Positions 52,266-54,439 of a stretch of 64,000 nt of DNA are shown in pieces. This DNA comes from Escherichia coli (lineage in GTDB: Bacteria > Pseudomonadota > Gammaproteobacteria > Enterobacterales > Enterobacteriaceae): assembly GCF_048403405.1 (NCBI RefSeq), contig NZ_CP183129.1; one strand, 5' to 3'. How positions within the stretch are numbered: the first letter of the stretch is position 1; each line of letters opens with the position of its first letter. The position numbers and the translations under genes are program-made. Below the pieces are notes generated by a model, which saw only the letters and a list, made by a program, of their open reading frames with translations, was not told where the DNA came from and ran no database searches.

Positions 52266-53615
52266 TTGGCGGGTTTTAACATCAAACATTGGTTTGCAGA
52301 TGGCGCGTTTCGCACCATTATTCGCAATAGCGCCTGGTTAGGCTCCAGTAATGTCGTGAGCGCCTTGCTGGGTTTGTTGGCGCTCTCGTGTGCCGGTAAA
52401 GGGATGACGCCCGCCATGTTTGGCGTACTGGTGATTGTGCAATCGTACGCCAAGTCGATCAGCGATTTTATTAAGTTTCAGACATGGCAGCTGGTGGTTC
52501 AGTACGGAACACCAGCATTAACCAACAATAATCCGCAGCAATTTCGCAATGTCGTCTCTTTTTCCTTCTCGCTGGATATCGTCAGCGGCGCGGTGGCGAT
52601 TGTCGGCGGCATTGCCTTACTCCCTTTTCTTTCCCATTCATTAGGTCTGGATGACCAAAGCTTTTGGCTGGCAGCGCTGTATTGCACGCTCATTCCTTCA
52701 ATGGCTTCCTCCACGCCGACCGGCATTCTGCGTGCGGTAGATCGCTTCGATCTAATTGCTGTACAGCAAGCGACGAAACCTTTTCTGCGCGCAGCGGGGA
52801 GCGTCGTAGCCTGGTATTTTGACTTTGGTTTTGCGGGTTTTGTTATTGCCTGGTACGTGTCGAATCTGGTTGGCGGCACCATGTACTGGTGGTTTGCCGC
52901 GCGCGAATTACGCCGCAGAAATATCCATAACGCCTTCAAATTGAATCTGTTTGAGTCTGCCCGACACATTAAAGGCGCGTGGAGTTTTGTCTGGTCAACC
53001 AACATTGCCCACTCCATCTGGTCGGCACGTAACTCGTGCAGCACAGTGTTGGTGGGGATCGTGTTAGGACCCGCTGCCGCCGGGTTATTTAAAATCGCCA
53101 TGACATTCTTCGACGCCGCCGGAACGCCAGCGGGTTTACTGGGTAAAAGTTTTTACCCAGAGGTGATGCGTTTAGATCCGCGCACCACCAGACCGTGGTT
53201 GTTAGGCGTGAAGTCAGGTTTACTGGCGGGCGGAATCGGTATTCTGGTGGCGCTCGCGGTGTTGATCGTCGGCAAGCCGCTCATTTCGCTGGTGTTTGGC
53301 GTTAAGTATCTCGAAGCGTATGACCTGATTCAGGTGATGCTGGGCGCAATTGTGATCTCGATGCTGGGCTTCCCTCAGGAGTCATTGCTATTGATGGCGG
53401 GAAAACAGCGCGCTTTTCTCGTGGCGCAAACCATCGCCTCAATCGGCTACATCGTATTGCTGTTCATGTTCTGTCATCTGTTTGGCGTGCTGGGGGCTGC
53501 ATTTGCTTACTTCGGTGGGCAATGTCTGGATGTGGTGTTCTCGCTAATTCCGACCTTAAAGGCATTTTTTCAGCGCCATTCCTTGCTTTATAACTCAGCC
53601 GGAGAGAAATCCTGA
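52266..53615 (+). CDS. yghQ: MOP-superfamily (Wzx/MurJ-like) flippase-like membrane protein YghQ, full length
   Basis: 449 aa polytopic membrane protein; the tracked ORF begins with TTG, so the exact start is uncertain. Confidence 0.75.
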   Translation: MAGFNIKHWFADGAFRTIIRNSAWLGSSNVVSALLGLLALSCAGKGMTPAMFGVLVIVQSYAKSISDFIKFQTWQLVVQYGTPALTNNNPQQFRNVVSFSFSLDIVSGAVAIVGGIALLPFLSHSLGLDDQSFWLAALYCTLIPSMASSTPTGILRAVDRFDLIAVQQATKPFLRAAGSVVAWYFDFGFAGFVIAWYVSNLVGGTMYWWFAARELRRRNIHNAFKLNLFESARHIKGAWSFVWSTNIAHSIWSARNSCSTVLVGIVLGPAAAGLFKIAMTFFDAAGTPAGLLGKSFYPEVMRLDPRTTRPWLLGVKSGLLAGGIGILVALAVLIVGKPLISLVFGVKYLEAYDLIQVMLGAIVISMLGFPQESLLLMAGKQRAFLVAQTIASIGYIVLLFMFCHLFGVLGAAFAYFGGQCLDVVFSLIPTLKAFFQRHSLLYNSAGEKS

Positions 53616-54439
53616 TGATGAGAAAATATTTCCCGCTTGAGGCGAGCGAGCGTCTATTTGTTGCGATTGAAGAAGATGATGTTGTTGATGCACAGGTCAG
53701 TTTGCCGCCGACTATCGCACTAAGTTGTACCATCGAAATCATCCATGATAATTACGCGTTATGCCTGCAATTCTGGCTCAATGGCGTCAATCGCCAGGAG
53801 TTACTGCGTTTAATATGCAAACAGGCCAAAGGCGATGAGCTGACTGCTGATGAGCGCAAACAATTTAAATACATGCGAGCGCGCTACAAGCACCTGCGTT
53901 TTGCGCAACGGCTGTATTTAAAAAAGCATCAGGCCGGATTTTTATTCGGCAAAACGACCGTTTTTTTGGGGCGTTTTCAGGACGGCTTTCGTAACGGTAA
54001 GAAAAATATTGTGTCGTATTACGGCAACCTGTTACGGGTTTATTTAAGCTCTCCGGTCTGGTCGTTGGTGAACTATTCATTACGCCATAGCCAGTTAGAA
54101 AGCGTAAGCGGTTTTATTGCCTATCGGCAAAAGCAAATGCATACCCTGAAAGAGATAATTGCCAAATCGCGACTAACTGGCAGGGAATTTCATGATGTGC
54201 GAAAAATCATCAGCCAGCAGGTTTCTTATTACGACACCCTAAGATCGCTTGATCCTGAAAATAAAGAAGCGTTACAGATTTCCCGCTTCCTCGCCGCCAT
54301 TAATGGCCTGATGGGGGATAAACATGACGACATGGTGGCGGATGATATGGAAAACCGCCATTCGTATGATGCACCGATGGCGCTGGATAGCGATATTCGT
54401 CAGCGCTTAGAACTGCTGATTTCGCGTTTTCCGCTATAA
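53615..54439 (+). CDS. Hypothetical protein, translationally coupled to yghQ
   Basis: 274 aa ORF; ATG overlaps the yghQ stop (TGATGATG) with a GGAGAG ribosome-binding site; no family recognised. Confidence 0.6.
   Translation: MMRKYFPLEASERLFVAIEEDDVVDAQVSLPPTIALSCTIEIIHDNYALCLQFWLNGVNRQELLRLICKQAKGDELTADERKQFKYMRARYKHLRFAQRLYLKKHQAGFLFGKTTVFLGRFQDGFRNGKKNIVSYYGNLLRVYLSSPVWSLVNYSLRHSQLESVSGFIAYRQKQMHTLKEIIAKSRLTGREFHDVRKIISQQVSYYDTLRSLDPENKEALQISRFLAAINGLMGDKHDDMVADDMENRHSYDAPMALDSDIRQRLELLISRFPL

What the first reader, a model, noticed from the sequence alone, without database searches (positions are those of the whole stretch)
53615..54439. 274 aa protein of unknown function translationally coupled to yghQ
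No recognisable catalytic motif, signal peptide or transmembrane segment, yet its start overlaps the yghQ stop and it precedes the YtfJ-like and Lpt-like genes, implying a stoichiometric partner of the flippase/export machinery. It is an obvious target for functional discovery.
Basis: seen in the sequence. Interest (0 to 1): 0.35.

Follow-up and report, generated by a model that had tools for sequence, protein, structure and literature searches.

The report
Hidden CHAD-fold partner of sphingolipid flippase
The unnamed 274-residue E. coli protein is a real, strongly conserved gene that turns out to be a very divergent member of the CHAD family (the fold known to bind polyphosphate), and it is always encoded back-to-back with a candidate lipid flippase and a set of small kinases in the sphingolipid gene island that laboratory strain K-12 has lost.

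Summary
ORF 53615-54439 (+) encodes a soluble, basic 274-aa protein whose ATG overlaps the yghQ stop (TGATG).

- **A real gene:** dN/dS is 0.07-0.09. It is in about 77% of complete E. coli genomes but absent from K-12.
- **Conserved residues:** they form two pseudo-repeats of basic/His stripes, as expected of a CHAD domain.
- **Conserved module:** in 27 loci from Enterobacterales, Luteibacter and Sphingomonadales the gene follows a YghQ-type MOP flippase with a -11 to +3 nt junction. YghR/S/T-type P-loop kinases lie in the same locus in 24 of 27. The sphingolipid genes and lptF2G2 move around it, and YtfJ adjacency is confined to Enterobacterales.
- **Best reading (inferred):** a non-catalytic phosphate-anion-binding adaptor. 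It would link a phosphorylated sphingolipid head group, or polyphosphate, to the kinases and the flippase.
- **Not shown:** ligand, physical contact and phenotype. A fused YghQ-target AlphaFold run gave no confident docking (pTM 0.57).

It is a new variant of a known domain in a new context, and a good experimental lead.

The parts
53615..54439 (+). Target gene: 274-aa soluble, basic, all-alpha protein; divergent 'long' CHAD-fold domain (two four-helix bundles)
53601..53617 (+). Coupling junction: GGAGAG Shine-Dalgarno inside the yghQ 3' end, yghQ TGA (53613-53615) overlapping the target ATG (53615-53617)
   Evidence: Sequence. Same type of junction (-11..+3 nt, mostly NTGA overlap) in 27 loci.
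52266..53615 (+). yghQ: MOP-superfamily (Polysacc_synt) flippase-like membrane protein, full length (truncated in K-12)
   Evidence: Pfam PF01943 4e-11, NCBIfam MOP flippase. 49-55% identical in Sphingomonadales. K-12 keeps only nt 1-1069.
51462..52220 (+). yghR: P-loop thymidylate-kinase-like kinase of unknown substrate
   Evidence: Sub-threshold Thymidylate_kin hit, Walker A GCDGTGKST. Orthologues in Luteibacter (58%) and Sphingobium (52%).
50717..51430 (+). yghS: paralogous P-loop kinase; probable first gene of the + strand operon
   Evidence: Promoter-like site at 50639-50667.
49851..50543 (-). yghT: third paralogous P-loop kinase, divergently transcribed
54448..55011 (+). YtfJ-family periplasmic protein (RefSeq start 54451); adjacent to the target in all 22 Enterobacterales loci that carry yghQ next to it, absent from the sphingomonad operons
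   Evidence: Pfam PF09695 2.5e-60. Contexts.
55042..56112 (+). lptF2: LptF paralogue (sphingolipid-type)
   Evidence: TIGR04407 4e-95. Caulobacter LptF2G2 are needed for sphingolipid transport (bioRxiv 10.64898/2026.04.12.717747).
56109..57188 (+). lptG2: LptG paralogue; last gene of the operon
   Evidence: TIGR04408 1.4e-90.
57186..57220 (.). 16-bp GC-rich hairpin between convergent lptG2 and spt: probable bidirectional terminator
57223..61334 (-). spt - acpR - cerR(epi) - aasR operon for 3-oxosphinganine/ceramide synthesis (57223-58395, 58395-58643, 58675-59589, 59586-61334; the RefSeq aasR CDS is 27 nt shorter than this ORF)
   Evidence: RefSeq names. Biochemistry of the E. coli BL21 orthologues ECD_02851-02854 in PMC9386255.
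61679..62821 (+). yghO: putative bacterial ceramide synthase (N-acyltransferase, ECD_02850)
   Evidence: PMC9386255.

Best explanation
**What it is.** The gene encodes a cytoplasmic, non-enzymatic CHAD-fold protein: two four-helix bundles carrying two pseudo-repeated stripes of conserved Arg, Lys and His. It is the last component of an ancient module made of two or three YghR/S/T P-loop kinases, the YghQ MOP-type flippase and this protein. In E. coli the module sits inside the sphingolipid synthesis and export island.

**Shown here:**
- the fold and the family relationship;
- the conserved basic residues;
- the conserved module and the conserved stop/start overlap with the flippase gene;
- strong purifying selection.

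**Inferred mechanism.** Like characterised CHAD domains, which bind polyphosphate on basic surfaces, it would bind a phosphate-rich anion at the inner face of the membrane. The most likely ligand is the phosphorylated head group that the YghR/S/T kinases put on a ceramide-type lipid. It would hold or present this to YghQ for flipping. LptB-LptF2G2 would then extract the lipid towards the outer membrane.

Being translated together with YghQ would keep the two proteins in matched amounts.

**Confidence breakdown.** CHAD-fold homologue and member of the kinase-flippase module: about 0.9. Phosphate-anion-binding adaptor for that module: about 0.35.
For: **Fold**
- AF2 pLDDT 97.2, pTM 0.93, 11 helices.
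- The Foldseek top hit is 6qv5, probability 0.98.

**Sequence**
- 25 of 76 family members hit PF05235 at E < 0.01.
- P0188 scores 323 bits against the family HMM and 40.9 bits against Pfam CHAD, whose gathering score is 25.6.

**Residues**
- R88, D123, H193 and R196 are invariant.
- K85, K92, R95, H105, G119, K197, N230, M233, G234, H237, D238 and Y251 are conserved at >= 86%.
- They lie as stripes on helix pairs H4/H5 and H9/H10. The family median pI is 9.3.

**Module**
- The flippase-target junction is -11 to +3 nt in 27 loci.
- Sphingomonad operons are kinase-kinase(-kinase)-flippase-target.
- Enterobacterales keep yghQ-target although lptF2G2, spt and yghRST are rearranged.

**Kinase link seen a second, independent way**
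- P0251 and P0269 fuse an APH/choline-kinase-type domain to two target-like modules.

**Sphingolipid link**
- spt, acpR, cerR, aasR and yghO are neighbours (PMC9386255).
- A GINT1_N protein lies next to the target in Sphingobium.
- An AasR orthologue lies beside a 35%-identical family member.

**CHAD function**
- PolyP binding through conserved basic residues is established for characterised CHAD domains (PMC6537752).
Against: - The E. coli protein itself gives no Pfam CHAD hit. The family profile finds no CHAD chain in PDB by sequence and does not align to the YgiF CHAD.
- None of the usual CHAD neighbours (CYTH/TTM, PPK, PPX) is present.
- The conserved R88-D123 and R196-D238 pairs could be internal salt bridges rather than ligand contacts. 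I could not superpose the model on the CtCHAD-polyP complex because no coordinates were available.
- E. coli has Q201 where 80% of the family has Arg.
- AF2 of a YghQ-(GGGGS)6-target fusion with 18 paired sequences gave pTM 0.57, so no confident interface.
- The substrate of YghR/S/T is unknown, and no phosphorylated E. coli sphingolipid has been described in the papers found.
- Pluralibacter carries a lone second copy away from any flippase.
Confidence: 0.45

Rival explanations
1. Genuine polyphosphate binder. The protein binds cellular inorganic polyP. It then either recruits polyP as phosphoryl donor for the YghR/S/T kinases or switches the kinase/flippase module on when polyP rises (starvation, stress). 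This would tie outer-membrane sphingolipid remodelling to the polyP signal.
For: PolyP is the only ligand demonstrated for CHAD domains (PMC6537752). The basic/His stripes are conserved and the family median pI is 9.3. The gene is constantly associated with P-loop kinases of the thymidylate-kinase superfamily. From my own knowledge, PPK2 polyP kinases belong to that superfamily; this was not tested here.
Against: No YghR/S/T-type protein gives a PPK2 Pfam hit even at E <= 1. No ppk, ppx or CYTH gene lies in any of the loci. The family is far from canonical CHADs.
Confidence: 0.2
2. Re-purposed scaffold. The CHAD fold has lost anion binding. The protein is a structural, assembly or stabilising subunit of the YghQ flippase or of a YghR/S/T complex.
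For: Translational coupling to yghQ is conserved across classes. Tandem duplications and fusions recur, which suggests an oligomeric scaffold. The protein evolves faster than yghQ and spt. The invariant Arg-Asp pairs could be structural.
Against: About ten basic/His positions are conserved at >= 80% over a family that has diverged to about 20% identity, more than a scaffold would need. The fused AF2 model shows no confident contact with YghQ.
Confidence: 0.2
3. An unrelated polyP-granule 'phosin'-type CHAD protein that merely sits in the island, with no role in the lipid pathway.
Against: Adjacency to the flippase, with an overlapping stop/start, survives in 27 loci despite rearrangement of everything else. 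Even a 35%-identical member lies beside aasR.
Confidence: 0.05

Closest known systems
CHAD domain proteins (Pfam PF05235): Ricinus RcCHAD 6QV5, Chlorobium CtCHAD 3E0S, Streptomyces PptA 6RN5, E. coli YgiF C-terminal domain
   Same: - Predicted two four-helix-bundle architecture of the 'long' (~300 aa) type.
- Conserved Arg/Lys/His stripes occur on equivalent helices of both halves, and the protein is basic.
- Relatives pass the Pfam model.
- Like CtCHAD, which is a dimer in solution, the family shows recurrent tandem duplication.
   Different: - The E. coli protein is below detection for PF05235.
- It has an N-terminal extension (residues 1-39).
- The first-repeat His is replaced by Lys (K85).
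- The genomic partners are a MOP flippase and P-loop kinases in sphingolipid loci, not CYTH/TTM, PPK or PPX.
- PolyP binding is untested.
Caulobacter crescentus sphingolipid locus CC_1152-CC_1168 (CC_1166 flippase, LptF2/G2/C2, CpgABC)
   Same: - Same kind of island: spt-acpR-cerR-aasR, bCerS, LptF2G2 paralogues and a Polysacc_synt-family flippase.
- The product is an anionic, phosphorylated sphingolipid exported to the outer membrane (PMC11324152; bioRxiv 10.64898/2026.04.12.717747).
   Different: - The gene next to CC_1166 is a TagF-like glycerophosphotransferase, not a CHAD-like gene.
- Its ceramide kinase CpgB is of the LCB5/DAG-kinase type, unrelated to YghR/S/T (PMC10331486).
- The E. 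coli/sphingomonad module (YghRST + CHAD-like) therefore looks like a different head-group branch.
Enzyme-CHAD pairings such as CYTH/TTM-CHAD (YgiF), where the CHAD domain enhances the polyphosphatase
   Same: A phosphate-handling enzyme is paired with a CHAD module. Here the pairing is by operon (YghR/S/T) and, in distant relatives, by fusion to an APH-type kinase domain.
   Different: The partner enzymes are kinases of other folds. The presumed substrate is a lipid head group rather than free tri- or polyphosphate.

Membership tests
CHAD domain (PF05235) | Two four-helix bundles related by pseudo-twofold symmetry | tested here: met
CHAD domain (PF05235) | The protein itself scores above the Pfam gathering threshold | tested here: not met
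   No CHAD hit for the E. coli protein even at E <= 1. NCBIfam gives none either.
CHAD domain (PF05235) | Demonstrable sequence homology to proteins that pass the Pfam model | tested here: met
   phmmer with the E. coli protein finds P0188 at E 9.6e-27. P0188 scores 323 bits against the family HMM and 40.9 bits against PF05235, gathering score 25.6. 25/76 family members hit PF05235 at E < 0.01.
CHAD domain (PF05235) | Conserved basic and histidine residues lining the ligand surface of both halves | tested here: inconclusive
   Stripes K85/R88/K92/R95 (helix 4) and H193/R196/K197/R201 (helix 9), plus H105 and H237, are conserved. Residue-by-residue equivalence to the CtCHAD polyP contacts (H253, R256, R260, R296, R418; PMC6537752) could not be checked because no coordinates or superposition were available. 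The hhalign comparison of the two halves is not significant.
CHAD domain (PF05235) | Binds inorganic polyphosphate | not testable with these tools
   Needs purified protein and a binding assay.
CHAD domain (PF05235) | Fused to or encoded with polyP-metabolising enzymes (CYTH/TTM, PPK, PPX) | tested here: not met
   The neighbours are YghR/S/T-type P-loop kinases, a MOP flippase and sphingolipid genes in all loci. This is a usual association of CHAD, not a strict definition.
TPR repeat protein (label given by one annotation source) | TPR repeat motifs / TPR superhelix | tested here: not met
   No TPR Pfam hit. No TPR protein appears among the top structural matches.
Lpt machinery component (LptB / LptC-like partner of LptF2G2) | ABC ATPase fold, or membrane-anchored beta-jellyroll | tested here: not met
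   All-alpha, no TM segment, no Walker motifs, no Lpt family hit. Its linkage is to yghQ rather than to lptF2G2, which lie elsewhere in several genera.
Proteobacterial sphingolipid gene island | Co-location with spt, acpR, cerR, aasR and bCerS | tested here: met
   All lie within 8 kb in the window, and spt-acpR-cerR-aasR lie within the fetched flanks in 21 of 22 yghQ-linked Enterobacterales loci. The same holds in Luteibacter. In sphingomonads the module is a separate operon in sphingolipid-producing hosts.

The most novel reading that the evidence does not exclude
Non-K-12 E. coli, other Enterobacterales, Luteibacter and sphingomonads make a so far undescribed sphingolipid. Its head group would be an oligophosphate (pyro-, tri- or longer ceramide phosphate) built stepwise by the three ancient YghT/S/R kinase paralogues.

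The CHAD-like protein would be the first CHAD domain that reads a lipid-linked phosphate chain. It would hand this pyrophosphate-type lipid to a MOP flippase, in analogy to undecaprenyl-pyrophosphate-linked substrates of Wzx and MurJ.
Probability: 0.1. Interest if true: 0.85.

Novelty: new variant of a known kind. Interest (0 to 1): 0.5.

Why it matters
How bacterial sphingolipids cross the inner membrane is an open question. The 2026 Caulobacter work identifies LptF2G2 for extraction but not the flipping step. This analysis adds three points.

- **A defined candidate flipping module.** It consists of YghR/S/T kinases, the YghQ flippase and a CHAD-fold protein, conserved between alpha- and gammaproteobacteria. 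It also yields a short list of residues to mutate.
- **A second CHAD protein in E. coli.** Most E. coli strains would carry it besides YgiF. It has been missed because K-12 deleted it and because it falls below Pfam detection.
- **A new context for the CHAD fold.** The fold would move from polyphosphate metabolism into membrane-lipid biogenesis. This hints at an uncharacterised phosphorylated lipid in commensal and pathogenic E. coli.

Tried and rejected
- **Direct family searches of the E. coli protein.** Pfam, NCBIfam and PADLOC gave nothing.
- **Sequence searches against PDB.** The family profile returned only chance hits. phmmer of P0188 returned nothing relevant. YghR and YghS returned nothing.
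- **hhalign of the family against the single YgiF CHAD sequence.** No match. YgiF is a 'short' CHAD and one sequence is too weak a target.
- **hhalign of the N-half against the C-half of the family.** It aligns the two motif pairs but is not significant (probability 2.8%).
- **Genome scan with the alignment.** It was repeated with the single protein, so only Enterobacterales loci came from that scan.
- **AF2 of a YghQ-(GGGGS)6-target fusion on 18 paired sequences.** Both halves fold, but pTM is 0.57, so there is no evidence for docking. The test is crude: shallow alignment, no PAE output.
- **Foldseek against afdb50.** Not available.
- **Caulobacter comparisons.** I checked whether the neighbour of the Caulobacter flippase (CC_1167) is the counterpart. 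It is not; it is TagF-like. I checked whether the Caulobacter ceramide kinase CpgB is related to YghR/S/T. It is not; it is of the LCB5/DAG-kinase type.
- **The 'TPR repeat protein' label.** Rejected.
- **RNA families and repeats in the region.** None of note.
- **Literature.** Nothing on this protein, its accession or BL21 locus tags, and nothing linking CHAD to bacterial sphingolipids.
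Full report
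**1. The observation**

- The window is an E. coli chromosome segment: hyb - gss - pitB - yghT/S/R/Q ... yghO - glc.
- ORF 53615-54439 (+) encodes 274 aa. RefSeq annotates it with the same ends as 'hypothetical protein' WP_000984962.1.
- The yghQ stop (TGA, 53613-53615) shares its A with the ATG at 53615-53617. GGAGAG lies at 53601-53606.
- The protein has no hydrophobic segment (largest 19-residue hydropathy mean 1.09) and no signal peptide. It weighs 32 kDa and has pI 9.2.
- Pfam, NCBIfam and PADLOC give no hit.
- Downstream follow a YtfJ-family gene, after 8-11 nt, and LptF and LptG paralogues.

**2. It is a real, selected gene**

- The 5.8-billion-protein collection holds 343 homologues. 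The 1.8 billion 50%-identity representatives hold 204 clusters.
- dN/dS against Escherichia and Pseudocitrobacter orthologues is 0.07-0.09.
- The gene is in 4165 of 5426 complete E. coli genomes.
- K-12 retains only the first 1069 nt of yghQ. This explains why the gene has no K-12 name and no literature.

**3. What the island is**

- On the other strand lie spt, an acyl carrier protein, an epimerase-family reductase and a fatty acyl-AMP ligase, followed by yghO.
- This is the E. coli B-type sphingolipid cluster ECD_02850-02854. Its SPT, AcpR and AasR have been characterised biochemically (PMC9386255).
- In Caulobacter, the LptF2G2 paralogues of the equivalent locus are required for sphingolipid transport and use LptB (bioRxiv 10.64898/2026.04.12.717747).
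- That preprint draws the E. coli UTI89 operon but does not discuss the flippase partner.
- On the + strand, yghS-yghR-yghQ-target-ytfJ-lptF2-lptG2 are packed with gaps of -4 to +45 nt. A promoter-like site precedes yghS, and a 16-bp hairpin follows lptG2.

**4. What the protein is**

*Structure*
- An alignment of 76 diverse full-length homologues (19-57% identical to the query) gave an AlphaFold2 model with pLDDT 97.2 and pTM 0.93. It is all-alpha with 11 helices.
- Everything below them is a generic single four-helix bundle aligning about 100 residues.
- The Foldseek top hit is also 6qv5, with probability 0.98 although E is only 0.13.

*Sequence*
- 25 of the 76 family members hit Pfam CHAD (PF05235) at E < 0.01, best 1.7e-8.
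- P0188 is a full-length family member: 323 bits against the family HMM and E 9.6e-27 with the E. coli protein. It passes the Pfam gathering score, 40.9 against 25.6 bits.
- UniRef already labels some members, from Sphingobium, Sphingomonas and Martelella, 'CHAD domain-containing'.

*Residues*
- The conserved residues fall into two equivalent helix pairs.
  - First pair: K85-x2-R88-x-R90-x-K92-x2-R95 on helix 4, with G119-x2-Q122-D123-x2-R126 on helix 5.
  - Second pair: H193-x2-R196-K197-x2-S200-R201 on helix 9, with N230-G231-x-M233-G234-x2-H237-D238 on helix 10.
- The family is basic, with median pI 9.3.
- This is the pattern expected of a CHAD domain: two four-helix bundles with pseudo-twofold symmetry and conserved basic residues that bind polyphosphate (PMC6537752).

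*Limits*
- The E. coli protein is invisible to the Pfam model.
- The family profile does not find CHAD chains in PDB by sequence, nor the short CHAD of YgiF.
- The N-half versus C-half profile comparison is not significant.
- I could not superpose the model on the polyP complex.

I therefore file it as a very divergent CHAD subfamily. I do not file it as a demonstrated polyP binder.

**5. What it travels with**

*Enterobacterales*
- In 22 of 24 loci from 12 genera (plus two unplaced Escherichia-like isolates), the order yghQ-target-ytfJ is kept.
- The lptF2G2 pair, the spt operon and yghRST change side and orientation around it.
- The two exceptions are second, lone copies in Pluralibacter.

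*Sphingomonadales*
- Sphingobium cloacae, Sphingomonas gellani, Sphingomonas sp. ASY06-1R and a metagenomic contig carry a compact operon: two or three small P-loop genes, a Polysacc_synt flippase and the target.
- These operons have no spt, lptFG or ytfJ nearby.
- Those P-loop genes are orthologues of YghT, YghS and YghR, at 39-62% identity with three recognisable paralogue groups.
- The flippases are 49-55% identical to E. coli YghQ.

*Luteibacter*
- The order is kinases, an LpxO-like hydroxylase, aasR-cerR-acpR-spt, the flippase, then two tandem copies of the family.

*The junction*
- Across all 27 loci the target start lies -11 to +3 nt from the flippase stop, mostly as an NTGA overlap.

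*Further links*
- In Sphingobium, a GINT1_N (glucosamine inositolphosphorylceramide transferase N-terminal) protein lies directly after the target.
- A 35%-identical metagenomic member sits beside an AasR orthologue.
- Two distant proteins, P0251 and P0269, fuse an APH/choline-kinase-type domain to two target-like modules.
- Duplication into tandem genes or tandem domains recurs. Since CtCHAD is a dimer in solution (PMC6537752), the working unit may be a pair.

The conserved core is therefore kinases + flippase + CHAD-like protein. YtfJ and LptF2G2 are lineage-specific additions.

**6. How it most likely works**

*Shown*
- A soluble CHAD-fold protein with conserved basic stripes.
- Production coupled to a MOP-type flippase.
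- Constant company of P-loop kinases, in sphingolipid producers.

*Inferred*
- It is a non-catalytic binder of a phosphate-rich anion at the cytoplasmic face. Most plausibly the ligand is the phosphorylated head group that YghR/S/T install on a ceramide-type lipid.
- It would present or retain this lipid for flipping by YghQ, after which LptB-LptF2G2 extract it.

I give about 0.9 to 'CHAD homologue that belongs to the kinase-flippase module'. I give about 0.35 to this specific role.

*Rivals*
- It binds genuine polyP, as phosphoryl donor or as a stress signal for the module (0.2). Against this, the kinases give no PPK2 hit and no polyP enzyme is nearby.
- It is a scaffold that no longer binds anions (0.2).
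- It is an unrelated polyP-granule protein (0.05). The conserved coupling argues against this.

*Direct test attempted*
- AF2 on a YghQ-linker-target fusion with 18 paired sequences gave well-folded halves but pTM 0.57.
- That is the value expected for two independent domains. It gives no support for a complex and, because the test is crude, no strong evidence against one.

**7. Comparison with what is known**

- The nearest known family is CHAD (PF05235). The fold, the repeat logic and the basic character agree.
- It differs in three ways: the sequence is sub-threshold, the first-repeat His is Lys, and the genomic partners are a lipid flippase and kinases rather than CYTH, PPK or PPX.
- The nearest known system is the Caulobacter sphingolipid locus. 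That locus lacks a CHAD-like gene: its flippase neighbour is TagF-like.
- It also uses an unrelated LCB5-type ceramide kinase (PMC10331486).
- The YghRST + CHAD-like module therefore looks like a separate head-group and flipping branch.
- I found no paper that links CHAD to sphingolipids or to this gene.

**8. Verdict**

- The protein is not featureless. It is a hidden CHAD domain, and its true conserved partners are YghQ and YghR/S/T.
- Novelty: a new variant of a known domain family in a new functional context.
- Interest: 0.5. It is a concrete, testable lead into the unknown flipping step of bacterial sphingolipid export. It also points to a possibly undescribed phosphorylated lipid of most E. 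coli strains. There is as yet no evidence on ligand, interaction or phenotype.

Noticed in passing
window 52266-53334 (yghQ 5' part) and beyond: K-12 genomes match only nt 1-1069 of yghQ. The rest of yghQ and the genes through lptG2 find no match in K-12. Another natural variant (P0032, 4 contigs) fuses residues 1-222 of the target to the C-terminus of GspM, i.e. a second, larger deletion reaching the type II secretion genes. The region looks deletion-prone.
   Followed up: partly
L013 10001-10795 and L017 10001-10804 (Pluralibacter): A second, lone copy of the family (57-60% identical) sits away from any flippase or kinase. In L013 it lies next to a BCCT transporter, an LpxO-like Asp/Arg beta-hydroxylase and an M20 peptidase (the L017 neighbours were not scanned). 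The same genomes also hold the full cluster (L014, L015).
   Followed up: partly
L029 9063-9905 and 10001-10840 (Luteibacter); proteins P0124, P0251, P0259, P0269, P0257: Recurrent tandem duplication of the module: two tandem genes, a fused tandem (P0124, 564 aa), and an APH/choline-kinase-like domain followed by two modules (P0251, P0269). P0257 has a 900-residue N-terminal part with no Pfam hit.
   Followed up: partly
L028 10865-11797 (Sphingobium cloacae): The gene directly after the target homologue carries a GINT1_N domain (glucosamine inositolphosphorylceramide transferase 1, N-terminal; E 9e-29), otherwise known from plant sphingolipid glycosylation. A GT4 glycosyltransferase and a VTT/DedA protein follow.
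   Followed up: no
window 49851-52220 (yghT, yghS, yghR): The three P-loop proteins are ancient paralogues. Each has its own orthologue in Luteibacter (58-61%) and Sphingobium (48-52%). All stay below the Pfam Thymidylate_kin threshold, have no PDB relative by sequence and give no PPK2 hit. RefSeq calls two of them 'dTMP kinase', which is probably an over-annotation.
   Followed up: partly
window 53615-55011 (target and ytfJ-like gene): Allelic divergence within E. coli is higher here than in the flanks. 513 genomes are only 90-95% identical over the target, while the whole yghQ-lptG2 stretch is 95-99% in nearly all. In L005 the target and ytfJ are 90-91% identical in protein, against 98% for yghQ and lptF2. 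G+C is also low: target 0.457 and acpR 0.406, against 0.51 for the window.
   Followed up: no
window 54448-55011: The YtfJ-family periplasmic protein is adjacent to the target in all 22 Enterobacterales loci that keep yghQ next to it, but is absent from the sphingomonad and Luteibacter operons. It is a lineage-specific addition of unknown role.
   Followed up: partly
E. coli genome collection: One of the 4172 matching places is on a plasmid rather than the chromosome.
   Followed up: no
window 57186-57220: A 16-bp, GC-rich hairpin sits exactly between the convergent lptG2 and spt genes, overlapping the last bases of lptG2. It is a probable bidirectional terminator.
   Followed up: no
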